From: Candidatus Latescibacterota bacterium
GTDB lineage: Bacteria; Latescibacterota; UBA2968; GCA-2709665
Direction of reading: 5' to 3'
DNA length: 64,000 bases
NCBI GenBank assembly: GCA_965116875.1
Contig: OZ220733.1
Coordinates: 3,360,001 to 3,424,000 of the forward strand
In this document: positions 22,434 through 57,175 of the stretch, in pieces
How positions within the stretch are numbered: the stretch's first letter is position 1
Layout of the letters: each line of letters opens with the position of its first letter
Notes under the pieces: model-generated
Database searches by the model: none
What the model saw: the letters and a program-made list of their open reading frames with translations, nothing else
What the model was told of the DNA's origin: nothing
Program-made: the position numbers and the translations under genes

Positions 22434-22716
22434 CGCGAACAGTTCCTTCTTTGGCCTTTTAACCTTGATTCGTAAGTTTTCGTGGACGTTAATTCGAATA
22501 TGTGCTAGTAAATAAAGGCGATTAGAAGGCGGATTACCAGGATACACCCGGTCACTGGAAGTGAACAGTTCCTCTCCCCGTGGCCCCTCAGATTCGGGTA
22601 GAAGGGAGACGGTAGAGGGGAGAGATTTCCTGCCTTATGGAGTTTCTTTTCCTGCCGGAGGCAAGAAGGAACAGAGTACCGGGCAAGGGTTTCTTCTACC
22701 GTCTACTATGTTAAAA

Positions 22717-23124
22717 GTCAAGAGAAAACGACCATATGTTGGCCTCAGATGCTGGGGTTACTCTACCATTATGCGTACCTATGCGACGCGTTCATTCCGA
22801 CACGCTCGACGAGCGTGTCGGAATGAACGAAATAAACGTCATTGAGGCCTGAATGGTTCCCTGCCGCACGACAGCAGTAGGGACCAGGCGTACGGTGTTC
22901 GCTGTTGGATGGCCTCAGATGCTGGGGCAACGCTACCAATCTACTATTCGTAGTCGCCTGGTGCAGGCGCTGACATGTCATTTATCCGGAGCCGTGCGAT
23001 AGGGGACGGGGCGTGCAAACTTCACTTACGTAGTACCCTGTGGGTCTACAAGACGGTAGGCGCCGTCCCCTGTACTCCGCGATCAAAAGCGGTGCGTGCG
23101 CAGGCATCTGTTGCGACCGTGTGT
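22717..23124 (-). ncRNA. Putative bridge/seek RNA, copy 1 (ends approximate)
   Basis: Non-coding region downstream of the recombinase; stem-internal loop-stem at 23001-23071 contains CUACCGUCU, identical to the target left half plus core. Confidence 0.8.
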
Positions 23125-24195
23125 TCACCCGGCGATGAGGCCCAGCTGATAGGGCTCTCCATTCAGCAGGATCCTGCGCATACGGCCCACCAGGATTCTG
23201 GCAACACCGACGATGGCGCGTTTGCCACCGGCACGCACCTTCAAGTGTTCGTATTTTTCCTGCATCGCGGGATCTTTCTCGATCAGGCGCCAGGCCGCCT
23301 GGGTAAGTAACGCACGTACAATGGGCTTTCCCTGGCGGGTGATGCGCCCGTGCCTCACGTGCTCGCCCGACGAGTGCTGGCCGGGCGTCAGCCCCACGTA
23401 GGCCGCCAGCGCATCTGCGTTCTTGAAGCGCGCCACATCCTGCAGTTCCAGGAGGATCTCCATGGCAGACAAGCATCCCACGCCCGGGATCGACGTCAGG
23501 ATCGCCACCCGATCCCGATACGTGTCTGTTTGCGCAAGCTCCCACAGCATTTTCGTCTGGCGCCCCACCAGTTCACACAGATCATCGTATTGTTCCAGCA
23601 TGTTCTCGAAGCTTTCCTGCGCACACGGCTCCCCCAGGTCCACACCACGCAGTGCGGTCACGAACTTGTCAGACCACGTCCCTCTGGATTCTTCGTGCAC
23701 ATACAAACCCATATACCGCAGTTCGGCCTTGATCCGTAGTTGTACACGCACCCGATCCTTGATGAACTGCCGGCGGCGACGACTCACTTGGCGGTGGCAC
23801 CGCTCTTCATGCGTCGGCACATAGATCGATGCCAGCAGGTCCGTCCTCAGATAATCCGCCAGCTTGAAGCTGTCGATGGAATCCGTCTTGACCCGATTCC
23901 CACTCTGGCTCGGGATCAGGCTCGGCGGCGTCACCGAAGCAGACACACCCATATCGACAAGAAAATCATATAACCAGAAACCGAAATAACCGGCTTCATA
24001 CACCGCAAAGATCTCTTTCGCTTCGCCATAACGACTCAACACCTTATCGATCGCCTCTGCTGTGCCTGCGATGCGATTGGAGAACAGTCGCAACCCATCC
24101 TCGTTGAGAATCGTCACGTGCCACTGCTTGAGATGCATGTCGATGCCCACGAAAAGATCCTTGCCATCCCACGCTTCAACGGTATACCTTGCCAT
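23125..24195 (-). CDS. IS110-family DEDD recombinase/transposase
   Basis: GIDMH, YEAG and KTD.ID (DEDD); IPGVG; GLTPGQHSSG catalytic-Ser loop; ATG at 24195 after AAGGAGG (track ORF starts 24237). Confidence 0.96.
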   Translation of the reverse strand: MARYTVEAWDGKDLFVGIDMHLKQWHVTILNEDGLRLFSNRIAGTAEAIDKVLSRYGEAKEIFAVYEAGYFGFWLYDFLVDMGVSASVTPPSLIPSQSGNRVKTDSIDSFKLADYLRTDLLASIYVPTHEERCHRQVSRRRRQFIKDRVRVQLRIKAELRYMGLYVHEESRGTWSDKFVTALRGVDLGEPCAQESFENMLEQYDDLCELVGRQTKMLWELAQTDTYRDRVAILTSIPGVGCLSAMEILLELQDVARFKNADALAAYVGLTPGQHSSGEHVRHGRITRQGKPIVRALLTQAAWRLIEKDPAMQEKYEHLKVRAGGKRAIVGVARILVGRMRRILLNGEPYQLGLIAG

Positions 24196-24296
24196 CACGA
24201 GCCTCCTTGTGAAAGTGTTTGTTACGGGCAAAGGCAAAGTATACTCTCACAAGCTGAGGCTCAACTCATTTTAACATAGTGACTTCCCTCTACCCT

Positions 24297-26696
24297 CTAC
24301 CCGCATTCAGGCCTTTTGTGGCCAATTTGACTGTAGTCTTTTTTCTGATTGAGGTTGTGCGGTGATCGGTTATCTGTGAGATCCGCGGTCTCCACCAGTT
24401 TCCACGTGTTTCCGCGATCCGGTGACATCATCAGCGAACGGCGGCTTTCCGGGTGGTCGTTCCTGTAGAACCAGTAGGTGGAGAAGTAGTCGTACGAGAG
24501 GAACAGCCGCCCGATGCGGTCTATAGTGAGCCGGTGGTAGAACACGCTGTATTCGGAGAACGGCGGCACGACGAGGACCCGGGGTTCCTGCCAGGCCCCT
24601 TCCGCGGGGCGATGCTGATGGGCCAGCGTCGCGTAGTTGCCGGCCGGGAAGTAGCTGGTGCCGTTCCACCAGAGTCTGAAGGCCGAATGCAGCGTGTCCT
24701 CCGGGTCGCAAACGAAGCCGATGTAGGTCTGCCGGGCGTCCGGCCATGCATCGCGGGGTTCCGTCCAGCCGGCGTCAGCCGTGTTCGAGCCCAGCGATCG
24801 TGCATACGGGAAGGGACATCCATGGGTTCCGGACAGCGCGTGCAGATAACCCCGGCTGTCCATGGTGATGCTGGGAGAATTGTGGATGTCGTTCGCGGGC
24901 GGACCGTAACCGACCAGTGCGGGCGCGCCCATCTGCCGCGTCTCCCTGTCGACGGTGGCGACGTACGTGGGCACGCCGGGGACGTCCTCGCCGGGGTCGG
25001 TCGCTTCGGCCCAGATGACGTTTACTCTGCCTTCTCTCGAGACAACCGAAGCGGGGATCCCGGAATGCTGGGAAAGGCCGATGCACCGATCGGAGACGAG
25101 TATCGGTTCGCCCAACGAAAGGCCGCGGGACGTCTTCTCGGGCAGGAAGAGCTCCAGGTCATTGACTTTTCGCCAGAACAGGCGCGCATCTTCCTCGGTG
25201 CGGGCGTAGCGGAGAACCGGAGGCGGTCCGTCACAGGAATTATGGCCGGTAAACCATTCGATATCGAAAGTACGCGGACAATCCTCTCTGCCGGGAATCG
25301 CGCATGCGGAGAAGGTGCGACCCTGGTCCGAGGAGTACAGCAGGTTGGGTTGACCGTTGACATTGGCTACAATATATAGTAGATTCTCCGAGTCGAAGGC
25401 AATCTTGGTGGATGCAGTTCCATCAGCGGCGTTGTCAATGCCGCGTACGGAACTTCCGAAGTCGGACTCGGTCCAGCGGCCGTCGCGCAAGGCGCTGATC
25501 CCTTTTTCGGTCCGTACGAATGGACGGTTTTCGAGATCGAAATAGATCTGGTTCTCTACGGGAAGATCGGGCACGAAACCGAACTGTGCGTTTTCATGTT
25601 CGTAGGGCTTCAATACCAGGGGCAGTCTGATGGGCCGCCGGACGGGTGAGGTTCCCGCCCTCAGCGTCAGCGTTGAATAGGTGGATATTTCCGGGTAGGT
25701 ATCGGACGTGGCCCTCAGCCGGCACGTAAGGACGTCATCTTCACCTGCCGAATCCGGCATGGCGTAACGGGCGGTGACGCGAGTGCGTTCCATTGGGCCC
25801 AGATCGACGGTGTCCGTGGAGAGCCGGACGGGGAGGGTGGATGCCCCGTCTGTTTCAGGCGTCAGCCGCACGGTTTGCGCCCTTTTGGAACTGTTTCTGA
25901 CGACGAAGTCGATCGCGCCGGACGCTCCGGCGCGGACGTACAGGTTTCGGTTGTAGGGTGTGAGCAGCCAGCGGCAGGCGTGGAGGGGGAAGAAGGATTC
26001 CGGGTTCGGGCTCCAGTACGACATGTTTACGTGGGGGTCGTCGTCGGACCAGCGCGTGACGCCGTCGACGTGGATAACGGCTTGCTGGACGGGCAGGTGG
26101 AGGCGCCAGGGCGTGGAACGGCGATCGTCTGCCGGAAACGTATGCGTGACGCGCCCGTTCCGGACCGCAAGGGTATCCACGGGGTTTCCGGCAGCATCGA
26201 ACACGGTCAGCGCTTCTACAGAATCGGGCAGGTCTTCGATTTCGACGTCGAACGTGCTCCGGGGTGGAAGAAAGCAAACGTTGCCGGGATGCTCCGGCGC
26301 GAGCAGGACGATGGGTTCCTGGTGCCTGGCGTCCTTGTGACCGCGGGACGTCTCGATGAGGTAATGCCTGCAGTTGGTCCGAAACGCCCAGACGATCTCC
26401 TCGCCGTACCGGTCATTAGATATCGTGATGTTGAGTTTGTAGATGCCTTTGTGGTTGACATGCGTCGACAACCGTGTATGTTGAACAGGGCCGTTGCCAT
26501 CGCCGGGACCGGAATCGGGAATCGTCACCTCCTGAATGACCCTTCGGTCCGGCGTAATCAGAAGCGCGCGCAGGTCCGTGCGGCGATTGTGGACGTTCCG
26601 GTCTCGTTTCTGCAGGTCAATGACAAGTTCACCGGGCTCGGCAAGAAAATACGCACCTCCCGCGCCGCCGATACCCCATCGAATCGTCGAATCCAT
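24297..26696 (-). CDS. BNR-repeat (sialidase-like propeller) protein
   Basis: YSSDQGRTF and SPDRGNTW Asp-boxes; DIHNSPSI..DS.GYLH motif; start MDST at 26696 preferred. Confidence 0.75.
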   Translation of the reverse strand: MDSTIRWGIGGAGGAYFLAEPGELVIDLQKRDRNVHNRRTDLRALLITPDRRVIQEVTIPDSGPGDGNGPVQHTRLSTHVNHKGIYKLNITISNDRYGEEIVWAFRTNCRHYLIETSRGHKDARHQEPIVLLAPEHPGNVCFLPPRSTFDVEIEDLPDSVEALTVFDAAGNPVDTLAVRNGRVTHTFPADDRRSTPWRLHLPVQQAVIHVDGVTRWSDDDPHVNMSYWSPNPESFFPLHACRWLLTPYNRNLYVRAGASGAIDFVVRNSSKRAQTVRLTPETDGASTLPVRLSTDTVDLGPMERTRVTARYAMPDSAGEDDVLTCRLRATSDTYPEISTYSTLTLRAGTSPVRRPIRLPLVLKPYEHENAQFGFVPDLPVENQIYFDLENRPFVRTEKGISALRDGRWTESDFGSSVRGIDNAADGTASTKIAFDSENLLYIVANVNGQPNLLYSSDQGRTFSACAIPGREDCPRTFDIEWFTGHNSCDGPPPVLRYARTEEDARLFWRKVNDLELFLPEKTSRGLSLGEPILVSDRCIGLSQHSGIPASVVSREGRVNVIWAEATDPGEDVPGVPTYVATVDRETRQMGAPALVGYGPPANDIHNSPSITMDSRGYLHALSGTHGCPFPYARSLGSNTADAGWTEPRDAWPDARQTYIGFVCDPEDTLHSAFRLWWNGTSYFPAGNYATLAHQHRPAEGAWQEPRVLVVPPFSEYSVFYHRLTIDRIGRLFLSYDYFSTYWFYRNDHPESRRSLMMSPDRGNTWKLVETADLTDNRSPHNLNQKKDYSQIGHKRPECG

Positions 26697-27011
26697 AGGT
26701 CTTCGCCTCTTGTTGGTGGTTGATCCCTCGCAGCTGGTACAAGTATAAGGTTGAGGGTCGTCAATTGAAACGAAAATAAGTCCGGGGCAGGGTCTGTGGA
26801 TCTGCATTTCGCAGACCGGCGCCCGGAGTGCGTTGCCCCGTCTGCTTCCGGACACAACGTTGGATTTTTGGAACGAAGAAGCGATCTGCGAAGTCGAAGA
26901 GCAATGAAGGTTTCACGCCTGGATGTTGGCTCTTCCATGGACGCTGCAGATTCACAACCCTGACGTAACCGGCCCGTAACACGAAAAATTATATTGTGCA
27001 GCTGATGTTTT

Positions 27012-27821
27012 TTGTCGCGGTTTGGTATATCTACCGTGAGGGGGGACAAGATGAAGTTCGTGCTGCATCGGTTTGAAGGATCCATCCTGTCAATTCTGGC
27101 CGCCCAGCGGGACAGACGCAAGCGCTTTCAACTGCTTCTTGAGGATCGACGGACCGGAATCCAGGTGGAAAAGCGGGACAAGAACCCGGAAGCGGACCTG
27201 AAACGGCGGTATCGACAGGTTCTCGGCCTTTCCTTCGCGCTTTCCGTAGCATTGCATGCCGGAATCGCCGTACTGTTTCCAACCCTGGATATTCAGGCTA
27301 CGACTTCCAAGCCGGACCAGATCGTGATTCATGTGGAGGACCTTCCCGAGACCCGGCAGATCACACGTCCGCCGCCGCCGCCCCGTCCCGCCCTGCCGAT
27401 CGAAACCGAAAGCGATGACGTACCGGACGACGTGACCATCGAGACGACCGATCTCGAATTGGAAGACGTGCCGGTGGATCTTCCACCGCCTCCGACGGCA
27501 GAGAATGAATCCATTCTCATCGAAGAGGAGGAAATCCTGGAAGTCTGGAAGGTGGAGCAGAAGCCCAGGCTGATCAGGCGGGCGATCCCTGATTATCCGG
27601 CGTTTGCACTGCGTGCCGGCCTGCAAGGATCGGTGATGTTGAAAGTGCTTCTTGGCCGGGACGGCAAAGCGGAGCAGATCCAGGTGCTGAAAGGCGAGGA
27701 GATCTTCCGGGCATCGGCCAGGGAAGCCGTGAGCAAGTTCCTGTTCGAACCGGCCCGCCAGAGCGACCGTCCGGTAAAGGTGTGGCTCGTAATTCCCATA
27801 CACTTCAAGCTGCAGGACTGA
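27012..27821 (+). CDS. tonB: Energy transducer TonB
   Basis: TM helix with SVALH, Pro-rich linker, C-domain YP..A..AGLQG.V and F.FEPA. Start uncertain. Confidence 0.85.
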   Translation: MSRFGISTVRGDKMKFVLHRFEGSILSILAAQRDRRKRFQLLLEDRRTGIQVEKRDKNPEADLKRRYRQVLGLSFALSVALHAGIAVLFPTLDIQATTSKPDQIVIHVEDLPETRQITRPPPPPRPALPIETESDDVPDDVTIETTDLELEDVPVDLPPPPTAENESILIEEEEILEVWKVEQKPRLIRRAIPDYPAFALRAGLQGSVMLKVLLGRDGKAEQIQVLKGEEIFRASAREAVSKFLFEPARQSDRPVKVWLVIPIHFKLQD

Positions 27822-28003
27822 GTCTGCGCGAAGTCCGAATTATTGCAAAATGGCGGAAAATCCGTTACATTCATTAATTGAATGCTGTGTCCCGAGAATG
27901 ACTTCCCCTTGCCATCCCTACTCTGTTGTCACTCTTCTTTCCAGCAGAGACAACCGACAGCTCAATCAGAGATTCCTCAAGTTCACAATTGCAAACGTAA
28001 CCC

Positions 28004-29140
28004 ATGAGGTCAGCCTTGTTAACCAGGATCCGCAGTCTGTTCGTTTTCTCGCTCGTCGCTGCCGTGAGCTGGGGCTGCGTTGCAGATGGCCTGCCTGAAA
28101 AGATCGAGATCGGCGTCGCACTCCCGCTGACCGGCCCGCAGATCTTATACGGCGCGCCGGCGTGGGAAGGCATCCAGTTCGCCCTTGAAGAAATCAACGG
28201 TTCATCGATACTCGGGGGCTCAAGCATCGAGTTCATCAGGGAGGATTCGCGAGGCACGGTTGATGCCGCCACGAAAGCGTTCAATAAACTTATCAAAGAG
28301 GACAGTGTGTCCGTCATCCTAGGTCCCGGTATCTCCACCGTGGCGAAGGAGGTGTTTCCGATCGCTCAACAGAGCGAGGTCCTGGCTTTAAGTCCGACAT
28401 CGACCGCCGTCGGACTGAGCGCGATCGGCGACTATATCTTCCGCACGGGCCTCAACGTTGGTACGCTCGCTCCAGGCGCCGTCAAGGGTACGAAGGAGAA
28501 ACTGGGGTATCGAAGAGTGGCGATTATGGTCGATTCGACCGACGTGTATTCCCGCAGCCTGGACGAGGAATTGCGCAACGCCCTGGCCGAGAACGAGGTC
28601 CAGATTCTGACAAGGGAGACTTTTGCAACGGGCGACACCTCATTTTCCGACCAGCTGAGCAGAATAATGGCTTTGAAGCCCCATGCCGTGTTTGTCTCGT
28701 GTCTGGCGGCGGAAATGATTCAAGTTCTGGTCAACGCCCACGAGGTTGGGATCCCTTCAACGATTCCTATGATCATACCTGAACTGTCCCTGGCCGAAGT
28801 TAAGAAAGCGGGCGACGCCGCCGAGGGCGCGATTTCCGTATTGAGTTGGGCAAGCAACGCTTCCACACCCGGGAACCAGGCCTTCGTTGAAAATTACATC
28901 GCCAGGTACGGCTACGAACCGCATCCCTGGGGCGCGATTTCTTACGTCTCGCTGCTTGTTCTCGCCAACGCAATCGCGGAAACCGGATCGATGGACGCCA
29001 GTGAAATCAAACGCGCGATGATCAATACCCGGGAGGTTGATACGATTCTGGGGCGTTTCTCGTTCAATCCCGATGGCGACGCGGTTTACAATCCCATTGT
29101 GCTGAAGGTGCGGAACGGTACCTTTGAAGTCTTCAAGTAA
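28004..29140 (+). CDS. Branched-chain amino acid ABC substrate-binding lipoprotein (LivK-like)
   Basis: IGVALPLTG, EDSRG, YIFRT and GRFSFNPDGD motifs; lipobox-like SWGC. Confidence 0.9.
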   Translation: MRSALLTRIRSLFVFSLVAAVSWGCVADGLPEKIEIGVALPLTGPQILYGAPAWEGIQFALEEINGSSILGGSSIEFIREDSRGTVDAATKAFNKLIKEDSVSVILGPGISTVAKEVFPIAQQSEVLALSPTSTAVGLSAIGDYIFRTGLNVGTLAPGAVKGTKEKLGYRRVAIMVDSTDVYSRSLDEELRNALAENEVQILTRETFATGDTSFSDQLSRIMALKPHAVFVSCLAAEMIQVLVNAHEVGIPSTIPMIIPELSLAEVKKAGDAAEGAISVLSWASNASTPGNQAFVENYIARYGYEPHPWGAISYVSLLVLANAIAETGSMDASEIKRAMINTREVDTILGRFSFNPDGDAVYNPIVLKVRNGTFEVFK

Positions 29141-29277
29141 GCCAATCGATGGCCCCTGCTGAGACATTGAGCACGGAGGTCCTTTTCCCGGATATACTTG
29201 ATAATTTCAGTCTATCTGGAACTCTTGTACTTATAGATCTGAAATAGCCCGTTTAATCAGGGACTCGTACATGCGAA

Positions 29278-29305
29278 GGGCGCCGGATTTTCCGGCGCCC
29301 CTTTT
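29278..29305 (+). terminator. Rho-independent terminator
   Basis: gggcgccgga-ttt-tccggcgccc followed by ctttt. Confidence 0.65.
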
Positions 29306-29494
29306 CGTGTCGCCTATATGGACGCAGGAGTGCAGCCCGTTACACGCCGTTCTACATTGCGCCCATGTGGCATCTGTAGGGGTCTGCCTGCTGACGACGG
29401 CGAGGCAGGCAACCCTTGTGGTTGACCGTATCATTGCGCGGATATCGCCGGTTCACTTCGCCAGGCCCTATCGTTAACCGGGTTTGGCTGACCG

Positions 29495-31183: not shown

Positions 31184-31312
31184 GGAAGGGCGGGTAGACG
31201 TGAGACGGAAGACGTGAGAGATTGCCTGCCTTGTCAGGTTTCTTCTCCTGCCGGAGGCAAGAAGGAATAGAGTATCGGGCAAGGGCTTCTTCTACCGTCT
31301 ACTATGTTAAAA

Positions 31313-31720
31313 GTCAAGAGAAAACGACCATATGTTGGCCTCAGATGCTGGGGTTACTCTACCATTATGCGTACCTATGCGACGCGTTCATTCCGACACG
31401 CTCGACGAGCGTGTCGGAATGAACGAAATAAACGTCATTGAGGCCTGAATGGTTCCCTGCCGCACGACAGCAGTAGGGACCAGGCGTACGGTGTTCGCTG
31501 TTGGATGGCCTCAGATGCTGGGGCAACGCTACCAATCTACTATTCGTAGTCGCCTGGTGCAGGCGCTGACATGTCATTTATCCGGAGCCGTGCGATAGGG
31601 GACGGGGCGTGCAAACTTCACTTACGTAGTACCCTGTGGGTCTACAAGACGGTAGGCGCCGTCCCCTGTACTCCGCGATCAAAAGCGGTGCGTGCGCAGG
31701 CATCTGTTGCGACCGTGTGT
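31313..31720 (-). ncRNA. Putative bridge/seek RNA, copy 2
   Basis: No difference seen from the copy 1 non-coding region. Confidence 0.8.
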
Positions 31721-32791
31721 TCACCCGGCGATGAGGCCCAGCTGATAGGGCTCTCCATTCAGCAGGATCCTGCGCATACGGCCCACCAGGATTCTGGCAA
31801 CACCGACGATGGCGCGTTTGCCACCGGCACGCACCTTCAAGTGTTCGTATTTTTTCTGCATCGCGGGATCTTTCTCGATCAGGCGCCAGGCCGCCTGGGT
31901 AAGTAACGCACGTACAATGGGCTTTCCCTGGCGGGTGATGCGCCCGTGCCTCACGTGCTCGCCCGACGAGTGCTGGCCGGGCGTCAGCCCCACGTAGGCC
32001 GCCAGCGCATCTGCGTTCTTGAAGCGCGCCACATCCTGCAGTTCCAGGAGGATCTCCATGGCAGACAAGCATCCCACGCCCGGGATCGACGTCAGGATCG
32101 CCACCCGATCCCGATACGTGTCTGTTTGCGCAAGCTCCCACAGCATTTTCGTCTGGCGCCCCACCAGTTCACACAGATCATCGTATTGTTCCAGCATGTT
32201 CTCGAAGCTTTCCTGCGCACACGGCTCCCCCAGGTCCACACCACGCAGTGCGGTCACGAACTTGTCAGACCACGTCCCTCTGGATTCTTCGTGCACATAC
32301 AAACCCATATACCGCAGTTCGGCCTTGATCCGTAGTTGTACACGCACCCGATCCTTGATGAACTGCCGGCGGCGACGACTCACTTGGCGGTGGCACCGCT
32401 CTTCATGCGTCGGCACATAGATCGATGCCAGCAGGTCCGTCCTCAGATAATCCGCCAGCTTGAAGCTGTCGATGGGATCCGTCTTGACCCGATTCCCACT
32501 CTGGCTCGGGATCAGGCTCGGCGGCGTCACCGAAGCAGACACACCCATATCGACAAGAAAATCATATAACCAGAAACCGAAATAACCGGCTTCATACACC
32601 GCAAAGATCTCTTTCGCTTCGCCATAACGACTCAACACCTTATCGATCGCCTCTGCTGTGCCTGCGATGCGATTGGAGAACAGTCGCAACCCATCCTCGT
32701 TGAGAATCGTCACGTGCCACTGCTTGAGATGCATGTCGATGCCCACGAAAAGATCCTTGCCATCCCACGCTTCAACGGTATACCTTGCCAT
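31721..32791 (-). CDS. IS110-family DEDD recombinase/transposase
   Basis: As copy 1; variants KTDPID and MQKKYE. Confidence 0.96.
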   Translation of the reverse strand: MARYTVEAWDGKDLFVGIDMHLKQWHVTILNEDGLRLFSNRIAGTAEAIDKVLSRYGEAKEIFAVYEAGYFGFWLYDFLVDMGVSASVTPPSLIPSQSGNRVKTDPIDSFKLADYLRTDLLASIYVPTHEERCHRQVSRRRRQFIKDRVRVQLRIKAELRYMGLYVHEESRGTWSDKFVTALRGVDLGEPCAQESFENMLEQYDDLCELVGRQTKMLWELAQTDTYRDRVAILTSIPGVGCLSAMEILLELQDVARFKNADALAAYVGLTPGQHSSGEHVRHGRITRQGKPIVRALLTQAAWRLIEKDPAMQKKYEHLKVRAGGKRAIVGVARILVGRMRRILLNGEPYQLGLIAG

Positions 32792-32908
32792 CACGAGCCT
32801 CCTTGTGAAAGTGTTTGTTACGGGCAAAGGCAAAGTATACTCTCACAAGCTGAGGCTCAACTCATTTTAACATAGTGACTTCCCTCTGCCGTCTCCCCGC
32901 ATTTCGGC

Positions 32909-35523: not shown

Positions 35524-35533
35524 CGGATGACAC

Positions 35534-43174: not shown

Positions 43175-43189
43175 CAGGAGGATCGGGAT

Positions 43190-46006: not shown

Positions 46007-46032
46007 AGGAATACCCCGATGCGATTGGGGCC

Positions 46033-47316: not shown

Positions 47317-47319
47317 GAA

Positions 47320-49803: not shown

Positions 49804-49845
49804 AGACACCCTGGTTCAGACGTTTCGTTTCTGTGGGGTTTACGT

Positions 49846-50889
49846 ATGCCGGTCTTTTCAGCGGCCGAACTGCATCGAATAGGTCGGGAGATCTACGAGC
49901 GCGCGGGCGCCACGTCCGAAGAAGCGGAGACGGTCGCGGGGCAATTGGTGGAGTCCAGCCTTTCCGGCCACGACTCGCATGGCATTCAGCGCCTGCCGCA
50001 GTACGTTGCGGGGGTGGCATCCGGACAGATCGTTCCCGGCGCGGTGGTCGAGGTGGAAAGGGAGACGCCCGCAACGGCCGTTTTGAACGGGAACTGGGGG
50101 TTCGGACACGTAACCGCGGTTGCCGCGATGAAGGTGGCGATCCGCAAGGCCCGGGAGGCCTCGGTGGGGATGGTCACGGTTCACCGGTGCAACCACGTCG
50201 GCCGGCTGGGCGCCTTTACGCCGCTTGCAGCGGAAGCGGACATGATCGGCATGCTCGCGAACAACGGACACGGGGCGGATCTGGCGATGCCCCCGTCGGG
50301 CGGGATCGGAAGAATACTCCCCGCGAACTGCCTCGCGGTGGCGTGTCCGTCCGGCGGCGATTTTCCAGTCGCGCTGGATTTCACAACCGCGGTGGCTGCC
50401 GGAGGCAAGGTTCGCGTGACTCTGGCGAAGGGCGAACGGATGCCGGACGGATGGATGATCGACCACGAGGGGTATCCGACGAACGATCCGCGGGTGTACA
50501 TGACGGAGCCGAAGGGCGCATTGCTGCCGTTCGGCGGGCCCGTGGCGCACAAGGGATACGGGCTGGCCTTCATGATCGACATTCTCTCGGGCGCCCTGTC
50601 ACCCGCCGGTTGTTCCCGCGAAAACTCCAAAGAGACGGGCAACGCGCTTTTTGTACAGGCCATCAATATTGAAGCATTTCAACCGCTCGAGGCGTTCAAG
50701 GCGGAGGTAAAGCGGTTCGTCGACTACGTGAAGTCTGCCGAACCGGCGCCCGGGTCGGACGAGGTGCTGGTTCCCGGAGAGCGTTCGCGGCGCACCCGGA
50801 AGGAGCGGTCAGAATCAGGCATTCCCGTACCGGACGCCACGTGGGAGCAGATTGTGGAGACAGGAAGGAAAGTGGGACTCGAACTGTAG
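49846..50889 (+). CDS. Ldh_2 (malate/L-lactate/ureidoglycolate dehydrogenase) family
   Basis: GHDSHG, HVGRLG, HKGYGL and VLVPGE motifs. Confidence 0.92.
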   Translation: MPVFSAAELHRIGREIYERAGATSEEAETVAGQLVESSLSGHDSHGIQRLPQYVAGVASGQIVPGAVVEVERETPATAVLNGNWGFGHVTAVAAMKVAIRKAREASVGMVTVHRCNHVGRLGAFTPLAAEADMIGMLANNGHGADLAMPPSGGIGRILPANCLAVACPSGGDFPVALDFTTAVAAGGKVRVTLAKGERMPDGWMIDHEGYPTNDPRVYMTEPKGALLPFGGPVAHKGYGLAFMIDILSGALSPAGCSRENSKETGNALFVQAINIEAFQPLEAFKAEVKRFVDYVKSAEPAPGSDEVLVPGERSRRTRKERSESGIPVPDATWEQIVETGRKVGLEL

Positions 50890-50901
50890 GAGGCACTGGA
50901 C

Positions 50902-52236
50902 GTGTCAGACAAAATACGATCTTTAGCCGAGGGCGCCCGGGCTGCGGCGCTGCAATTGAGCAATGCATCCGAAGAGGAACGCAACGCGGCGCTGGAGGCA
51001 ATCGCGCGGGGTCTGGAGGTCAACGCGGGCGCCATACTGGAGGCCAACCGGCGGGATCTCGAGGCGGCAGACGTGCTGCTTGCCGAGGGCAGGCTGACGG
51101 GCGCGCTGGTGGGGCGGCTGAAGGTGGATGACGTCAAGCTTCGCAGTGAAATCATCCGTGGCGTTCACAGCGTAAGATCACAGGCGGACCCCATCGGCCG
51201 GACGCTGGCGGCCACGGAGATGGATCGTGGACTGAACGTGTATAAAATATCGGTACCCATCGGTGTCCTGGGGATCGTGTTTGAGTCGCGGCCTGACGCG
51301 CTCGTGCAGATCGCCACGCTCTGCCTGAAGTCCGGCAATGCGGTCCTGCTCAAGGGGGGCAGCGAGGCGTTCCATACCAACCGCGCGCTGGCGAACATCC
51401 TCATCGCCTCCACACGCGGCCTGCCCGGCATACCGGACGGCTGGATGCATCTGATGGAGGCGCGTGAGGACGTGCAGGCCATGCTGGACCTGCACCACCT
51501 GATCGATCTCATCATCCCCCGGGGCGGCAACGAGCTGGTCCAGCACATTATGCGGAATACCCGGATTCCGGTGATGGGGCACGCCGACGGCATCTGCCAC
51601 GTGTACGTGGACGCGGCGGCGGACCTCGAGAAGGCGAAGCGGATCTGTCTGGATGCCAAGACCCAGTACCCCTCGGGGTGCAACGCGGTTGAGACACTGC
51701 TGGTTGACAGAGAGATCGCGGGTGAATTCCTGCCGGAAATGTTGGGAATTTACCGCAGTAACGGCGTTGAGGTGCGGGGGGACGGATTGACGCGTTCGCT
51801 GGCAGGAGGCGAGGTGGCCGCCGTGTCCGAGGAGGACTGGGCGACGGAATATCTCGATCTGGTGATCTCGGTCAAGGTCGTGAACGGCGTTCACGAAGCG
51901 GTCGATCACATCAACCGGTACAGCAGCAACCACACCGATGCGATTGTCACCGAAGACCGGGCGGCGGCGTCCAGGTTCCTGCGCGAGGTGGATTCCGCGT
52001 CCACGCTGCACAACGCGTCGACCCGGTTCGCCGACGGGTTCCGCTACGGTCTGGGCGCCGAGGTGGGGATCAGCACCAACCGGCTGCACAGCCGGGGTCC
52101 CGTAGGGCTCGAGGGGCTTGTCATCTACAAATACATCATCGAGGGCAACGGGCAGGTTGCGGGCGATTATCTCGGGGAAGACGCAAAGGCATTCACCCAT
52201 CGACACCTGGCCGAGGACTGGACGCCAGAAAGCTGA
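50902..52236 (+). CDS. proA: Gamma-glutamyl phosphate reductase
   Basis: FESRPD, KSGNA, CNAVET, NASTRFADG and GAEVGIST motifs. Confidence 0.96.
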   Translation: MSDKIRSLAEGARAAALQLSNASEEERNAALEAIARGLEVNAGAILEANRRDLEAADVLLAEGRLTGALVGRLKVDDVKLRSEIIRGVHSVRSQADPIGRTLAATEMDRGLNVYKISVPIGVLGIVFESRPDALVQIATLCLKSGNAVLLKGGSEAFHTNRALANILIASTRGLPGIPDGWMHLMEAREDVQAMLDLHHLIDLIIPRGGNELVQHIMRNTRIPVMGHADGICHVYVDAAADLEKAKRICLDAKTQYPSGCNAVETLLVDREIAGEFLPEMLGIYRSNGVEVRGDGLTRSLAGGEVAAVSEEDWATEYLDLVISVKVVNGVHEAVDHINRYSSNHTDAIVTEDRAAASRFLREVDSASTLHNASTRFADGFRYGLGAEVGISTNRLHSRGPVGLEGLVIYKYIIEGNGQVAGDYLGEDAKAFTHRHLAEDWTPES

Positions 52237-52411
52237 GAAGCTGTTTTAAAATTACCGGTGAGCTCCCGAGCGCGAGCGAAAAAGTGTCGGTCAAGGCGGG
52301 AAAATCCGCCCATATTTGTCTATACGGGTGGGTTTGACCAACGCCGACCGGCGCTTTTGCAGCCGCGCGAAGACCGCTGGGAATTTTAAGACAGCTTCGG
52401 AGGTCTTTTCA

Positions 52412-55297
52412 ATGAAATATGTTCTGCGGTTTCCGGTTCTGTTTTGCCTCGTCCTGTTCGGCGCCTGTGCCGCACCGCAAAAGGCGGCCCCGCCGGAGCC
52501 TGTTGCGCCGCCTCCCCCGCCGAAACTGCCGGTCGATCCGAATCTGACGCGTGGCAGGCTTCCCAACGGCATCCGGTATATCATCCGGGAGAACCAGCGG
52601 CCGGAGAACCGCGCCGAGTTGCGGCTGGTGGTGAACGCGGGTTCGATACTGGAAGACGAGGACCAGCAGGGCCTGGCTCATTTCGTGGAACATATGGCGT
52701 TCAACGGGACCCGGAATTTCCCGAAGCTGGACCTGGTGAATTACCTGGAATCGATCGGCATGCGGTTCGGGCCGGACCTGAACGCGTACACCAGTTTCGA
52801 CGAAACCGTGTACATGCTCCAGGTGCCCACGGACAGCGCGCTGATTGTGACACAGGCGTTTCAGATTCTGGAGGACTGGGCGTCGGGCATCCTGTTTGAG
52901 GCAGAGGAGATCGACAAGGAGCGAGGGGTGGTGATCGAGGAGTGGCGTCTGGGCCGGGGCGCGGGCGCACGGCTGCGGGACAAGCAGTTCCCGATCCTGC
53001 TCAAGGGCTCCCGCTATGCGGAAAGGCTGCCCATCGGGAAGAAGGCCGTGCTGGATACCTTCAGGCACGAGGCGGCGAAGCGGTTCTATCGCGAGTGGTA
53101 CCGCCCGGACCTGATGTCCGTCATCGCCGTGGGCGATTTTGAAACGGCATGGATCGAAGGGCTGATTCAGACGCATTTCGGGCGGATTCCCGCGGCGCGC
53201 CAACCCAGAAAGCGGACGCTGTATCCGCTGCCGGGGCACGAGGAGACCCTGTTCGCCATCGCCACCGATCCGGAGGCGACCAGAACGAACGTTTCCATCT
53301 ATTACAAGCAACCGGTTCGGGAACAGGACTCTGCCGGGGCCTACCGCCAGAACATCGTCGAGTCTCTGTACAACAGGATGCTGAGCGCCAGGTTGCGGGA
53401 AATGACAAAAAAACCCGACGCGCCGTTTCTGTTCGCGTACTCCAGCCAGGGTCGATTCATCCGGACAAGCGAGTTTTACCTGCAGGGCGCCGTCGTCAGA
53501 GAGGGTGGGATTCTGCGGGGGCTGGAGGCCGTACTCACGGAAGCCAGAAGGGTGCGCCTGCACGGGTTTACGCAGTCGGAACTGGAGCGTGAGAAAACCG
53601 AGGCGCTCCGCGGGATGGAGCGCGCTTACGCGGAGCGGGACAAGGTCCGTTCCCGCAGATATGCGTCGAAGTATATCCGGCATTTTCTATCGGGCGAGCC
53701 GATTCCGGGGATCGAGCATGAATACACGATGTTCCAGGAGATGGTCCCGGAAATCCGTCTGACCGAGGTGAACCGCCTCGCCGGCGAGTGGATCACCGGG
53801 CATAACCGCGTCGTTCTGGTCGACGGTCCGGAGAAGCAGGGCGTGACAATGCCCACCGAAGAGGAACTCACGGGGGTCATCGCGCGCGTCGACGAGATGG
53901 AGGTCGAGCCCTACGAAGACGCGGCCCTGGCCCGGCCGCTCGTCGAGACGCCGCCAACGCCCGGCGAAATCGTCGCGGAGAAGAAGATCGCCGAACTGGA
54001 CGTGACCGAATGGACGCTGTCGAACGGTGTGCGCGTCGTGCTGAAGCCGACTGATTTCAAAAACGACGAGGTGCTGTTTTCGGCATTCAGCCCGGGCGGA
54101 CTCGGGCTGGTTTCAGACGAGGACTATCTTGCAGGCGTTACCGCGTCTGCCGTCGTTCAGGAAGGGGGCCTGGGGAGCTTCAACGCGATCGGACTGGAGA
54201 AGAAGCTGGCAGGAAAGGTGGTGCGCGTATCACCCTGGATCCAGGGACTTCGCGAAGGGGTCAGGGGCAGCGCCTCACTGAAGGATCTGGAGACGATGTT
54301 TCAACTGGTCTACCTGACGTTCACTGCGCCGCGCAAGGATCCCGACGCGTTTCTGGCCTACGTGCAGCGCATCCGCGGATCGCTGGAAAACCGCAGCGCC
54401 AGCCCCGCGACAGCCTACGGCGATACGATTCAGGTAACGATGGCGCAGTACCATCACCGTGCGCGGGTCTGGTCGGAAGCGCTTCTGGAAGAAATGAATC
54501 TCGATCGTTCAATCGCGATCTACCGGGACCGGTTCGCCGACGCGAGCGATTTCACGTTCTTCTTCGTCGGCAACATCGAGCTGGAAGGCATCCGACCGCT
54601 GGTAAAGACGTATCTGGGCGGGCTGCCTGCGACGAGGCGAAACGAGTCGTGGCGCGACGTGGGTTTGCGGCCTCCCCGGGGAATTATTGAAAAAACCATC
54701 CACAGGGGCCTGGAACCCAAGAGCAGCAATCGGATCGTCTTCACCGGGCCCTTCGAATGGAGCCGCAGGAACCGTTACAACCTGGCGTCCACAATCGATG
54801 TACTCCGAATCAGGCTTCGTGAGGTTCTGAGAGAGGAAATGGGCGGGACCTATGGCGTGGGCGTGGGCGTGTCCACCTCCCGCTATCCCGAGCAGCGGTA
54901 CCGTATCCGGATCAGCTTCGGCTGCGCGCCCGACAGCGTCGAACAACTCACCCGGGCGGTTTTCGCCCAGATCGACAGTCTCAAGCAGTTCGGCGCATCG
55001 GATACGAATATCGAGAAGGTCCAGGAGGCGGACCGCCGCGCCCGGGAAGCTGCGTTGAAGGAGAACGGGTTCTGGCTGAGATCCCTTTCGTCCAACTACT
55101 GGCATGGCCTGGACCCCGTCGACATTCTGGCTTACGACGAACTGGTGAACGGACTCACGTCAGACGTTGTTCGGGACGCCGCGCGGAAGCATTTCAATAT
55201 GGAGAACTATGCGCGCTTCGTACTCTACCCGGAAACGACGGAGGACGGACCTCGGGACGGGGACACGGGTCCCCCGGACACCACCGACGGGCCCTGA
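52412..55297 (+). CDS. M16 zinc peptidase (PqqL-like), lipoprotein
   Basis: HFVEH inverted zinc motif, NAYTSFDET, lipobox FGAC. Confidence 0.93.
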   Translation: MKYVLRFPVLFCLVLFGACAAPQKAAPPEPVAPPPPPKLPVDPNLTRGRLPNGIRYIIRENQRPENRAELRLVVNAGSILEDEDQQGLAHFVEHMAFNGTRNFPKLDLVNYLESIGMRFGPDLNAYTSFDETVYMLQVPTDSALIVTQAFQILEDWASGILFEAEEIDKERGVVIEEWRLGRGAGARLRDKQFPILLKGSRYAERLPIGKKAVLDTFRHEAAKRFYREWYRPDLMSVIAVGDFETAWIEGLIQTHFGRIPAARQPRKRTLYPLPGHEETLFAIATDPEATRTNVSIYYKQPVREQDSAGAYRQNIVESLYNRMLSARLREMTKKPDAPFLFAYSSQGRFIRTSEFYLQGAVVREGGILRGLEAVLTEARRVRLHGFTQSELEREKTEALRGMERAYAERDKVRSRRYASKYIRHFLSGEPIPGIEHEYTMFQEMVPEIRLTEVNRLAGEWITGHNRVVLVDGPEKQGVTMPTEEELTGVIARVDEMEVEPYEDAALARPLVETPPTPGEIVAEKKIAELDVTEWTLSNGVRVVLKPTDFKNDEVLFSAFSPGGLGLVSDEDYLAGVTASAVVQEGGLGSFNAIGLEKKLAGKVVRVSPWIQGLREGVRGSASLKDLETMFQLVYLTFTAPRKDPDAFLAYVQRIRGSLENRSASPATAYGDTIQVTMAQYHHRARVWSEALLEEMNLDRSIAIYRDRFADASDFTFFFVGNIELEGIRPLVKTYLGGLPATRRNESWRDVGLRPPRGIIEKTIHRGLEPKSSNRIVFTGPFEWSRRNRYNLASTIDVLRIRLREVLREEMGGTYGVGVGVSTSRYPEQRYRIRISFGCAPDSVEQLTRAVFAQIDSLKQFGASDTNIEKVQEADRRAREAALKENGFWLRSLSSNYWHGLDPVDILAYDELVNGLTSDVVRDAARKHFNMENYARFVLYPETTEDGPRDGDTGPPDTTDGP

Positions 55298-55461
55298 CCG
55301 CCTTCGGGACCTCTACCCCGGCCCCACAGAAGCGGGTAGACGTTAGACGGGAGAGATTACCTGCCTTGTGAGGATTTCCTTCGCGCCGAAGGCAAGGAGG
55401 GAAAACATCCCGGGCAAGGATTTCTTCTACCGTCTCGCCTCTACCGTCTACTATGTTAAAA

Positions 55462-55869
55462 GTCAAGAGAAAACGACCATATGTTGGCCTCAGATGCTGG
55501 GGTTACTCTACCATTATGCGTACCTATGCGACGCGTTCATTCTGACACGCTCGTCGAGCGTGTCAGAATGAACGAAATAAACGTCATTGAGGCCTGAATG
55601 GTTCCCTGCCGCACGACAGCAGTAGGGACCAGGCGTACGGTGTTCTCTGTTGGATGGCCTCAGATGCTGGGGCAACGCTACCAATCTACTATTCGTAGTC
55701 GCCTGGTGCAGGCGCTGACATGTCATTTATCCGGAGCCGTGCGATAGGGGACGGGGCGTGCAAACTTCACTTACGTAGTACCCTGTGGGTCTACAAGACG
55801 GTAGGCGCCGTCCCCTGTACTCCGCGATCAAAAGCGGTGCGTGCGCAGGCATCTGTTGCGACCGTGTGT
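55462..55869 (-). ncRNA. Putative bridge/seek RNA, copy 3
   Basis: Same guide segments; compensatory pair change in the long hairpin. Confidence 0.8.
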
Positions 55870-56940
55870 TCACCCGGCGATGAGGCCCAGCTGATAGGGC
55901 TCTCCATTCAGCAGGATCCTGCGCATACGGCCCACCAGGATTCTGGCAACACCGACGATGGCGCGTTTGCCACCGGCACGCACCTTCAAGTGTTCGTATT
56001 TTTCCTGCATCGCGGGATCTTTCTCGATCAGGCGCCAGGCCGCCTGGGTAAGTAACGCACGTACAATGGGCTTTCCCTGGCGGGTGATGCGCCCGTGCCT
56101 CACGTGCTCGCCCGACGAGTGCTGGCCGGGCGTCAGCCCCACGTAGGCCGCCAGCGCATCTGCGTTCTTGAAGCGCGCCACATCCTGCAGTTCCAGGAGG
56201 ATCTCCATGGCAGACAAGCATCCCACGCCCGGGATCGACGTCAGGATCGCCACCCGATCCCGATACGTGTCTGTTTGCGCAAGCTCCCACAGCATTTTCG
56301 TCTGGCGCCCCACCAGTTCACACAGATCATCGTATTGTTCCAGCATGTTCTCGAAGCTTTCCTGCGCACACGGCTCCCCCAGGTCCACACCACGCAGTGC
56401 GGTCACGAACTTGTCAGACCACGTCCCTCTGGATTCTTCGTGCACATACAAACCCATATACCGCAGTTCGGCCTTGATCCGTAGTTGTACACGCACCCGA
56501 TCCTTGATGAACTGCCGGCGGCGACGACTCACCTGGCGGTGGCACCGCTCTTCATGCGTCGGCACATAGATCGATGTCAGAAGGCCTGTCCTCAGATAAT
56601 CCGCCAGCTTGAAGCTGTCGATGGGATCCGTCTTGACCCGATTCCCACTCTGGCTCGGGATCAGGCTCGGCGGCGTCACCGAAGCAGACACACCCATATC
56701 GACAAGAAAATCATATAACCAGAAACCGAAATAACCGGCTTCATACACCGCAAAGATCTCTTTCGCTTCGCCATAACGACTCAACACCTTATCGATCGCC
56801 TCTGCTGTGCCTGCGATGCGATTGGAGAACAGTCGCAACCCATCCTCGTTGAGAATCGTCACGTGCCACTGCTTGAGATGCATGTCGATGCCCACGAAAA
56901 GATCCTTGCCATCCCACGCTTCAACGGTATACCTTGCCAT
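55870..56940 (-). CDS. IS110-family DEDD recombinase/transposase
   Basis: As copy 1; variants KTDPID and RTGLLTS. Confidence 0.96.
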   Translation of the reverse strand: MARYTVEAWDGKDLFVGIDMHLKQWHVTILNEDGLRLFSNRIAGTAEAIDKVLSRYGEAKEIFAVYEAGYFGFWLYDFLVDMGVSASVTPPSLIPSQSGNRVKTDPIDSFKLADYLRTGLLTSIYVPTHEERCHRQVSRRRRQFIKDRVRVQLRIKAELRYMGLYVHEESRGTWSDKFVTALRGVDLGEPCAQESFENMLEQYDDLCELVGRQTKMLWELAQTDTYRDRVAILTSIPGVGCLSAMEILLELQDVARFKNADALAAYVGLTPGQHSSGEHVRHGRITRQGKPIVRALLTQAAWRLIEKDPAMQEKYEHLKVRAGGKRAIVGVARILVGRMRRILLNGEPYQLGLIAG

Positions 56941-57175
56941 CACGAGCCTCCTTGTGAAAGTGTTTGTTACGGGCAAAGGCAAAGTATACTCTCACAAGCT
57001 GAGGCTCAACTCATTTTAACATAGTGACTTCCCTCTTATCTCTACCCGCATTCCGGCTTTTTTGGCCAATATGTTTTTTTTCAATTGAGGTCTAATTGCA
57101 GCGAAGTCCCGGCGTGTCCAGATGCCGGGACTCGTCTTTGATGTGTGAACGCGATCGCTGACGGAGGGGCAATCG

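What the first reader, a model, noticed from the sequence alone, without database searches (positions are those of the whole stretch)
22595..57048. RNA-guided IS1111-type recombinase homing into one nucleotide of a hairpin repeat, three times in 35 kb
Seen: three 1580-bp copies in the same orientation, each with left junction ctaccgt-CT-actatg and right junction catagtga-CT-tccctct. The empty site reconstructs as CTACCGT-CT-TCCCTCT, always 19 bp from the end of a ~130-bp hairpin repeat whose copies are otherwise diverged. Knowledge: IS110/IS1111 DEDD recombinases use bridge/seek RNAs and a 2-nt core, and some target REPs. Inference: a complete, recently active programmable recombinase system (protein, RNA, donor and target all readable) specialised on a repeat family I do not recognise.
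Basis: partly seen in the sequence, partly recalled or inferred. Interest (0 to 1): 0.88.

Follow-up and report, generated by a model that had tools for sequence, protein, structure and literature searches.

The report
RNA-guided IS1111-type insertion sequence, six copies
A 1.58-kb mobile element that encodes its own guide RNA has inserted at exactly the same base of a host hairpin repeat three times in this window; it is a new, well-preserved example of the already known bridge/seek-RNA transposons, not a new kind of system.

Summary
Three 1578-bp copies, 99.4-100% identical, lie at 22705-24282, 31301-32878 and 55450-57027. Each has CT on both sides and sits at the same base of the 3' arm of a ~135-bp hairpin repeat. 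The element has the defining features of an IS1111-group insertion sequence. These are a DEDD/serine transposase (356 aa, minus strand), 12-bp subterminal inverted repeats, a 420-nt non-coding region downstream of the gene, and no target duplication.

I compared it with 26 related elements from other genomes. They share a two-loop RNA scaffold, and the loop bases match each element's own flanks: 18 of 27 cognate pairs against 9 of 700 non-cognate pairs for one guide, and 22 of 27 against 22 of 664 for the other. Here the guides read CUACCGU-CU (9/9 to the target) and AGUGA-AG (6/7).

The genome holds six copies. The other three sit in a second hairpin, CTCCCGT-CT-TCTCGC, and the two older ones carry the matching guide change (A to C).

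"Specialised on one repeat family" is only half right, and the novelty was overrated: this is a new member of a known kind.

The parts
22705..24282 (-). IS copy 1 (1578 bp), reference copy. Transposase orientation is the minus strand.
31301..32878 (-). IS copy 2, 99.87% identical to copy 1.
55450..57027 (-). IS copy 3, 99.37% identical to copy 1. A 14-nt duplication of the target arm lies just outside its low-coordinate end.
22703..22704 (.). Core dinucleotide CT (AG in the element's orientation) at the RE junction of copy 1. A second CT lies at 24283-24284. Empty sites have one CT.
23125..24195 (-). Transposase gene, 356 aa (ATG at 24195-24193, TGA at 23127-23125). D19, E67, D105, D108 and S276-G277 align with the catalytic residues of IS621.
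22705..23124 (-). 420-nt non-coding region downstream of the transposase gene (right end of the element).
22925..23063 (-). Bridge/seek-RNA core. It gives a full-length match to a covariance model built from 25 relatives only.
   Evidence: 41.3 bits, E 4.8e-11; exactly 6 hits in the genome, the 6 IS copies.
23051..23059 (-). Target guide 1 (5' side of the target loop): CUACCGU-CU, the reverse complement of core plus 7 nt of the flank beyond the right end. It matches the target 9/9.
   Evidence: The variant base at 23057 covaries with the target.
23020..23028 (-). Target guide 2 (3' side of the target loop): UAAGUGA-AG. AGUGAAG matches the flank beyond the left end plus core (AGGGAAG) 6/7.
22941..22947 (-). 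Donor guide (3' side of the donor loop): AUAGU-AG, the last 5 nt of the element plus core.
   Evidence: (the last base covaries with the RNA in 28 of 28 printed elements).
22976..22980 (-). Putative short donor guide on the 5' side of the donor loop (UGACA against TGA-CT of the left end). This is the weakest assignment.
   Evidence: Reading alignment. Inference.
24269..24280 (-). Subterminal inverted repeat at the left end (ACTATGTTAAAA in element orientation), 2 nt (TC) from the tip. Its partner is 22705-22716 (TTTTAACATAGT), flush with the right end.
22740..22909 (-). ~170-nt segment of the non-coding region that is absent from relatives. It ends in a ~40-nt imperfect duplicate of the sequence after the donor loop and contains a 41-nt perfect palindrome (22789-22829). 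Function unknown.
22575..22704 (+). Host hairpin repeat, 5' arm and centre, at copy 1. Its 3' arm continues at 24283-24304.

Best explanation
This is an autonomous insertion sequence of the IS1111 group of the IS110 family.

How it works, as read here. Its DEDD/serine recombinase is guided by an RNA transcribed from the 420-nt region downstream of the gene. The RNA has two internal loops.
- The target loop carries CUACCGU-CU on its 5' side. This pairs with one strand of core plus the flank beyond the right end. On its 3' side it carries (U)AAGUGA-AG, which pairs with the other strand of the flank beyond the left end plus core.
- The donor loop carries AUAGU-AG and a short UGAC, which read the joined ends of the excised circle.

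Recombination at the 2-nt core (AG in the element's orientation, CT on the window's plus strand) inserts the circle without a target duplication. In the circle, the joined ends assemble a -35 TTGACT / 17 nt / -10 TATGTT promoter upstream of the gene.

The 14-16-nt site specified by the guides occurs in the 3' arm of a genus-wide ~135-bp hairpin repeat, so the three window copies sit at the same base.

What is shown and what is inferred. Shown: the anatomy, the scaffold conservation, and the guide-target and guide-donor complementarity across relatives. Inferred: that the RNA is made, that it binds the protein and that it is required.
For: Protein
- Pfam PF01548 plus PF02371. NF033542 scores 216 bits against a cut-off of 140.
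- The alignment to IS621 places D19/E67/D105/D108 and S276-G277 on its DEDD motif and catalytic serine.
- All 6 genomic copies keep an intact 356-aa frame.

Anatomy
- 87 nt lie upstream of the gene and 420 nt downstream.
- The subterminal inverted repeats are 12 bp.
- CT lies at both junctions and only once in empty sites.

RNA
- RNAalifold on 27 elements gives two stem-loop-stem modules with 23 pairs, 11 of which have compensatory changes.
- A model built without this element hits it full-length at E 4.8e-11. In the whole genome it hits only the six copies.

Guides
- At fixed scaffold positions, guide 1 matches the cognate flank at >=8/9 in 18 of 27 elements, against 9 of 700 non-cognate pairings.
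- Guide 2 matches at >=6/7 in 22 of 27, against 22 of 664.
- The donor-guide base equals the last base of the element in all 28 printed elements: C, G or T.

Within the genome
- Copies B and F lie in CTCCCGT-CT sites and carry CUCCCGU-CU. Copies C, D and E lie in CTACCGT-CT sites and carry CUACCGU-CU.
- F also changes AAG to CGA in guide 2. With the U bulged this gives CGA(U)GA-AG, equal to the second family's CGAGA-AG.

Junction promoter
- Both hexamers are good in 20 of 28 elements, always with a 17-nt spacer.
- No promoter-like site was found inside the integrated copy.
- The same arrangement is described for IS110 elements (PMC11208160, passage seen).

Recency
- Copies A, C and D differ at 2-4 of 1578 positions, while the repeats around them are only 76-95% alike.
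Against: - Guide 2 of the window copies has one mismatch to its own target (AGUGAAG against AGGGAAG). Its loop is 1 nt longer than in most relatives.
- Copy A carries window-type guides but sits in a second-family site, with one mismatch in guide 1 and a poor guide 2.
- Copy B's guide 2 (UAAGUUG-AG) fits its site badly.
- In this element two pairs of the donor loop's inner stem are broken (UGUCA/CUACG; reading).
- The 5'-side donor guide is short and uncertain.
- 9 of 27 elements match at <8/9 for guide 1. These include single-copy loci whose flanks may have drifted.
- Nothing here shows the RNA itself, or transposition.
Confidence: 0.88

Rival explanations
1. The recombinase finds the site itself by recognising the hairpin structure or sequence of the repeat, as some REP-associated or single-strand transposases do. 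On this reading the downstream non-coding region is only a regulatory or terminator region.
For: Both target families are hairpins, and the insertion point is on the 3' arm in each (and the reading). Guide 2 is imperfect here, and copy A tolerates mismatches.
Against: Across 27 elements with unrelated targets, two fixed RNA positions spell the element's own flanks far more often than other elements' flanks. The donor guide tracks the element's last base in 28 of 28 printed elements. The guide base at 23057 changes together with the target.
Confidence: 0.04
2. The three window copies, and the six in the genome, were spread by recombination or duplication between repeat copies rather than by transposition. 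The identical junctions would then be inherited, not re-created.
For: All copies lie in repeats that could support homologous exchange. Copy A could be an older resident copy overwritten by gene conversion from a window-type copy.
Against: The repeat arms next to the copies are 76-95% alike while the IS copies are 99.4-100% alike. Sequence beyond the repeats is unrelated, at 0.23-0.31 identity. Conversion would have to stop exactly at both IS ends every time.
Confidence: 0.04
3. The element is a real IS1111-type IS but is no longer mobile in this host, for example because the ~170-nt insertion in its non-coding region or the guide-2 mismatch has disabled the RNA. The copies would be recent relics.
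For: The insertion is absent from all relatives examined. It duplicates ~40 nt after the donor loop without the AGUAG guide. Guide 2 is imperfect.
Against: All six copies, including the 89%-identical F, carry the insertion. The element therefore multiplied after acquiring it. Six of 6 reading frames are intact. Near-identical copies A, C and D imply very recent movement.
Confidence: 0.08

Closest known systems
IS1111-group elements with seekRNA (ISEc11, ISKpn4, ISPa11, ISPst6; Siddiquee et al. 2024, PMC11187229: abstract and sections 6, 9 and 13 read)
   Same: DEDD transposase with the GL-P----SG motif (GLTPGQHSSG here). Subterminal inverted repeats. A long non-coding region downstream of the gene. 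[quoted passage not shown] Each IS lineage has its own target.
   Different: The transposase is 356 aa, slightly above the 330-350 aa the paper gives for IS1111 transposases. It is at most about 40% identical to anything in the plasmid collection and 58% to the best genome hit. The non-coding region carries an extra ~170-nt segment. The RNA has not been observed.
IS621 bridge RNA system (IS110 group; Durrant et al. 2024 PMC11208160 and Hiraizumi et al. 2024 PMC11208158, passages read)
   Same: Two internal loops, each with two guides reading opposite strands around a CT core. A composite DEDD plus serine active site. A promoter re-formed across the circle junction. Discontiguous (bulged) guide pairing is documented there.
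   Different: In IS621 the RNA lies upstream of the gene and the inverted repeats are 2-3 bp. Here the RNA is downstream and the repeats are 12 bp. Protein similarity is remote (E 1.5e-11).
REP-targeting IS110-family elements (ISPpu9 in Pseudomonas putida, PMC12288879: search listing and abstract only; Tobes & Pareja 2006, seen only as a reference entry)
   Same: Multiple copies inserted at a fixed position of host extragenic palindromic repeats.
   Different: A different host repeat: ~135-bp heptad-rich palindromes of a genus seen in sponge and coral-reef metagenomes. A second hairpin family is also used. No orphan RNA copies were found, whereas the abstract describes solo ssr9 genes in P. 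putida.

Membership tests
IS110 family (DEDD transposases) | Transposase with an N-terminal DEDD RuvC-like domain (PF01548) and a C-terminal PF02371 domain carrying a conserved SG | tested here: met
   (E 3.5e-19 and 5.2e-27). (NF033542, 216 bits against a cut-off of 140). D19/E67/D105/D108 and S276-G277 align to the IS621 catalytic residues.
IS110 family (DEDD transposases) | Site-specific insertion without target-site duplication; a short core shared by donor and target | tested here: met
   CT flanks both ends in 6 of 6 copies. It occurs once in empty sites.
IS1111 group | Subterminal inverted repeats of 7-17 bp (criterion quoted in PMC11208160) | tested here: met
   12-bp perfect repeat ACTATGTTAAAA / TTTTAACATAGT, 2 nt and 0 nt from the tips.
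IS1111 group | Long non-coding region downstream of tnp (PMC11187229 section 6) | tested here: met
   420 nt downstream against 87 nt upstream.
IS1111 group | GL-P----S(T)G motif in the C-terminal domain (PMC11187229 section 6) | tested here: met
   GLTPGQHSSG at residues 268-277 (translation; invariant columns).
IS1111 group | Transposase branches inside the IS1111 clade of an ISfinder-wide tree | not tested
   No ISfinder reference set was available. Only remote hits to IS621 and ISCro4 in the PDB and <=40% identity to plasmid-borne IS110-family genes.
IS110 group proper (IS621-like) | Guide RNA in the long left end, upstream of tnp; inverted repeats absent or 2-3 bp | tested here: not met
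   The left end is 87 nt. The covariance-model hit lies downstream of the gene.
Bridge RNA / seekRNA | Conserved structured RNA with loops whose bases are complementary to both strands of the cognate target around the core | tested here: met
   18 of 27 against 9 of 700, and 22 of 27 against 22 of 664; 11 of 23 pairs with compensatory changes..
Bridge RNA / seekRNA | A loop complementary to the donor (joined ends) | tested here: met
   AUAG(x)AG follows the element's last base in 28 of 28 printed elements. The 5'-side donor guide is only tentative.
Bridge RNA / seekRNA | The RNA is expressed, binds the transposase and is required for and reprogrammes insertion | not testable with these tools
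   Needs RNA-seq, RIP and a recombination assay.

The most novel reading that the evidence does not exclude
The genome captures natural re-programming of a bridge/seek RNA. Two sub-lineages of one IS live side by side, 86-95% identical in protein, and each has both target guides tuned to a different host hairpin family. Guide 1 differs A/C. Guide 2 differs AAG/CGA and would be read with a bulged U. A third, very recent jump (copy A) shows a mismatch-tolerant crossover between the two niches. In addition, the ~170-nt segment unique to this element's non-coding region would be a functional add-on, for example a processing, termination or regulatory module, rather than junk.
Probability: 0.3. Interest if true: 0.5.

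Novelty: new member of a known kind. Interest (0 to 1): 0.36.

Why it matters
The element adds a complete IS1111-type system in which the recombinase, guide RNA, donor ends, target and empty sites can all be read from sequence. It comes from a lineage far from the cultured hosts studied so far: its best protein match to plasmid-borne relatives is at most about 40% identical.

The 27-element comparison gives a clean map of which RNA positions are programmable in this clade. One guide has 7 + 2 nt and the other 5 + 2 nt, with an AG/CT core and a conserved circle-junction promoter. That map could serve as a starting point for testing a new orthologue in genome engineering.

The co-resident guide variants offer a natural experiment on mismatch tolerance and retargeting. 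The element does not change what is known about how such elements work.

Tried and rejected
Rfam. A scan of 22000-25000 at E <= 1 found only a chance lncRNA match and no bridge-RNA family. This says nothing either way, because no such family may be curated.

Guide scoring. My first scoring by fixed MAFFT columns was out of register by 1 nt for most rows and gave meaningless low matches. I replaced it with a best ungapped match inside the same 16-18-column neighbourhood, applied identically to cognate and non-cognate pairs.

RNA evidence. In the one metatranscriptome laid (X20), contigs cover only 23759-24289, the 5' half of the gene and the left end. Nothing lies on the non-coding region. Contigs in an RNA library are not proof of transcription, so no conclusion on the RNA follows.

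Excision evidence. One X4 contig joins 22702 to 24283, skipping 1580 nt, with depth 2.9 and side 35. Two near-identical joints have sides of 20-25. At 90% likeness these may be other, empty copies of the repeat, so I do not count them as excision.

Second guide module. I asked whether the ~170-nt insert is a duplicated guide loop.
- The covariance model gives only a 2.4-bit local hit (E 0.67) on a hairpin at 22854-22886.
- Outside the ~40-nt duplicate, self-similarity is no better than shuffles: 79 of 300 reach it.
- A variable patch (AACAGCGAAC / AACAGAGAAC / AAAAGAGAAC / AGAAGGGAAU) does not track the target family.
This is not supported and remains unexplained.

Integron attC idea. The second target family clusters at 1.774-1.793 Mb. 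Of 9 ORFs scanned there, 5 carry FtsX permease domains (4 of them with MacB_PCD as well), 1 is MFS, 1 is BNR_4 and 2 have no hit. I found no integrase among them, did not search further, and dropped the idea.

Orthologous empty site. The best repeat matches in sister genomes (L077-L079) share only the repeat with this locus, not the flanks. They are therefore not orthologous alleles.

Other IS110-family genes in this genome. tblastn with this protein finds only the six copies.

Novelty limits.
- ISfinder could not be queried.
- Supplementary tables of PMC11208160 (predicted bridge RNAs for ISfinder entries) and of PMC11187229 were closed, and they might list a closer relative.
- My literature searches were only (seekRNA / IS1111 / bridge RNA / IS110).
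- I did not search the literature for the hairpin repeat family, and I make no claim that it is undescribed.

Full report
OBSERVATION

The window contains three direct copies of a 1578-bp element at 22705-24282, 31301-32878 and 55450-57027. Relative to the first they are 100, 99.87 and 99.37% identical. Each starts ACTATGTTAAAA, ends TTAACATAGTGA, and has CT immediately outside both ends.

Sequence next to the copies is similar only within a host repeat. Identity is 0.80-0.88 over the 25 nt to the right. It is random (0.23-0.31) a few hundred bases away on either side. The copies are therefore three separate insertions.

ANATOMY

The only long ORF inside the element is on the minus strand (23125-24195, 356 aa).
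- It carries Pfam DEDD_Tnp_IS110 and Transposase_20.
- It passes NCBIfam NF033542, 'IS110 family RNA-guided transposase', at 216 bits against a cut-off of 140.
- A phmmer alignment to the solved IS621 recombinase is remote (E 1.5e-11). It still lines up GID, YEAG, KTDSID and GLTPGQHSSG with the DEDD residues and the catalytic serine described for IS621 (passages of PMC11208158).

In the element's own orientation there are 87 nt before the gene and 420 nt after it. A perfect 12-bp inverted repeat lies 2 nt from the left tip and flush with the right tip.

The published marks of the IS1111 group, as opposed to the IS110 group proper, are subterminal repeats of 7-17 bp, a downstream non-coding region and the GL-P----SG motif (PMC11187229 section 6; PMC11208160 passage). 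This element has all three.

WHOLE GENOME

The window is G000:C1:3360001-3424000 of a single 5.45-Mb contig. BLAST, tblastn and the RNA model all find six copies and no more. They are the three window copies (C, D, E), two tandem copies at 1.774 and 1.776 Mb (A, B) and one at 5.315 Mb (F).
- All six reading frames are intact.
- A has the same protein as C. D differs from C by 2 residues, E by 3, B by 18 and F by 49.
- At the nucleotide level, A and D each differ from C at 2 positions, B is 95% identical and F is 89% identical.

TARGETS

Copies C, D and E sit in CTACCGT-CT-TCCCTCT. Copies A, B and F sit in a different sequence, CTCCCGT-CT-TCTCGCT (F: TCTGGCT).

The first site is on the 3' arm of an imperfect palindrome of about 135 bp, built from GTCTxCC-like heptads (folds).
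- A single-sequence nhmmer search gives about 165 hits to this core. It is often joined to an ~88-copy left module and a ~40-copy right module.
- At the homologous position the repeat is variable. Of 159 alignable rows, 11 read CTACCGTCTTC and 12 read CTCCCGTCTTC. The rest differ just after the CT.
- Genome-wide there are 15 CTACCGTCTTC sites and 53 CTCCCGTCTTC sites. Four are unoccupied exact 16-mers of the window-type site.

The repeat is a property of the genus. I found it in 12 of 12 other species genomes of the same genus and in 0 of 8 genomes of a second genus of the same order. The IS was not found in those 12 congeners with this protein query. The exception is a 153-nt left-end remnant, 95% identical, in G008, again next to a repeat arm.

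The second site lies in a short hairpin (GAGCGAAGA...TCTTCTCGCTC). This hairpin recurs between tandem MacB/FtsX-type permease paralogues at 1.77-1.79 Mb and at scattered places elsewhere.

THE RNA

A protein-profile scan of species-representative genomes returned 73 related loci, with 58% as the best identity. Most come from MAGs labelled Latescibacterota, Ignavibacteriota, Zixibacteria and various Desulfobacterota. Where both ends could be found, these elements share the ends AG|T(A/C)ACTATG ... CATAG(C/G/T)|AG but have quite different flanks.

Their downstream regions align to this one over about 140 nt. RNAalifold gives two similar modules, each an outer stem, an internal loop and an inner hairpin closed by UGUGG/CCACG. 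There are 23 pairs, and 11 show compensatory changes.

In the first module:
- The 5' loop strand is the reverse complement of core plus 7 nt of the flank beyond the right end.
- The 3' loop strand equals 5 nt of the flank beyond the left end plus core.

I scored these the same way for cognate and non-cognate pairs.
- The first guide matches at >=8/9 in 18 of 27 cognate pairs against 9 of 700 non-cognate pairs.
- The second matches at >=6/7 in 22 of 27 against 22 of 664.

In the second module the 3' strand reads AUAG(x)AG. The base x equals the last base of that element in all 28 printed elements. This is the donor loop.

This element fits the pattern. GGCG-C-CUACCGU-CU-UGUAG...CUACG-UAAGUGA-AG-UUUGC is the target loop, and ...ACUACGA-AUAGU-AG-AUUGG is the donor loop (coordinates checked). 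A covariance model built from 25 relatives without this element matches it end to end (41.3 bits, E 4.8e-11).

The architecture corresponds to the target- and donor-binding loops of bridge RNAs, and to the top- and bottom-strand matches of IS1111 seekRNAs (PMC11208160 passages; PMC11187229 section 9).

GUIDE-TARGET COVARIATION INSIDE THE GENOME

The third base of guide 1 (window 23057) is A in copies A, C, D and E, and C in B and F. The targets of C, D and E have A at that place, and those of B and F have C. Five of six copies are therefore matched.

The exception is A. It differs from C at only 2 of 1578 bases and lies 755 bp from B, with an empty second-family site between them. It is best read as a very recent insertion that tolerated one mismatch, although gene conversion of an older copy cannot be excluded.

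F also changes three adjacent bases of guide 2 (UAAGUGA-AG to UCGAUGA-AG). If the U is bulged this reads CGA-GA-AG, the consensus of the second target family. Discontiguous guide pairing is reported for IS621. B's guide 2 does not fit its site.

The C-variant of guide 1 is also present in contigs of two other metagenomic runs (place 23057).

EXPRESSION LOGIC

No sigma-70-like promoter is predicted inside the integrated copy. Joining the right end to the left end through the core would create TTGACT, 17 nt, then TATGTT. Both hexamers are good in 20 of 28 elements of the clade, always with a 17-nt spacer. A junction promoter in the circular form is described for IS110 elements. This step is inferred.

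OTHER SAMPLES

Contigs from a sponge metagenome, a coral-reef metagenome and a third coded organism's run carry the element and its flanks at 90-100% identity. In two of these runs a contig joins 22450 to 24360 with 13 other letters. Related strains therefore lack both the repeat cluster and the IS at this locus.

UNEXPLAINED

The non-coding region is about 185 nt longer than in the closest relatives. The extra part (about 22740-22909) ends in a ~40-nt imperfect duplicate of the sequence after the donor loop, minus the AGUAG guide. It contains a 41-nt perfect palindrome. All six copies have it.

VERDICT

The element is an unnamed member of a little-studied clade of the IS1111 group. The kind of system, including insertion into host palindromic repeats, is already known. 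I rate it a new member of a known kind, of moderate interest mainly as a clean natural data set on guide programming.

Noticed in passing
window 22575-22704 + 24283-24304; genome-wide: A ~135-bp imperfect palindromic repeat built from GTCTxCC-like heptads has about 165 nhmmer hits in this genome. It was found in 12 of 12 congeneric genomes searched and in 0 of 8 genomes of a neighbouring genus. I do not recognise the family and did not search the literature for it.
   Followed up: partly
window 22474-22547: A separate ~70-bp repeat module has about 88 copies in the genome and is often attached to the left of the hairpin repeat. It shows 5-20 times the contig depth of its surroundings in three metagenomic runs.
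   Followed up: no
window 22450-24360: In two other runs a contig joins 22450 directly to 24360 with 13 other letters. The whole repeat cluster (~330 bp) plus the IS is therefore an insertion/deletion polymorphism between related strains.
   Followed up: no
window 55422-55449: Just outside copy 3 the target arm carries a 14-nt tandem duplication (TCTACCGTCTCGCC followed by TCTACCGTCT). The origin is unknown, and slippage in the heptad repeats is possible.
   Followed up: no
window 22740-22909 (minus strand): A ~170-nt insertion in the IS non-coding region carries a 41-nt perfect palindrome (22789-22829) and a ~40-nt flanking duplication. It is present in all six copies and absent from relatives.
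   Followed up: partly
L074/L075 (G000:C1:1768001-1796000): Four tandem paralogous ~780-820-aa MacB_PCD/FtsX permease genes, plus a 284-aa FtsX-only ORF, are separated by copies of the second target hairpin. IS copies A and B lie at one end of this array, with an empty site between them.
   Followed up: partly
L084 (G008:C1:~848680-848830): A sister species holds only the first 153 nt of this IS, 95% identical, abutting a repeat arm ...GGTAGACGTA-AG. This is a remnant showing the element was once present there.
   Followed up: partly
window 20682-22430 (-) and 24297-26855 (-): The genes flanking copy 1 are a 582-aa ankyrin-repeat protein and an 852-aa protein with a BNR_4 domain.
   Followed up: no
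L032-L036, L039-L043, L003-L005/L009, L046/L048/L049: Related elements in Zixibacteria, Ignavibacteriota and other MAGs are also multi-copy. They sit in short palindromic host sequences, for example CCCACCCGCA-AG-CGGGTGGG and CAGGAA-AG-GATTCCTG. Hairpin targeting therefore seems common in this clade.
   Followed up: partly
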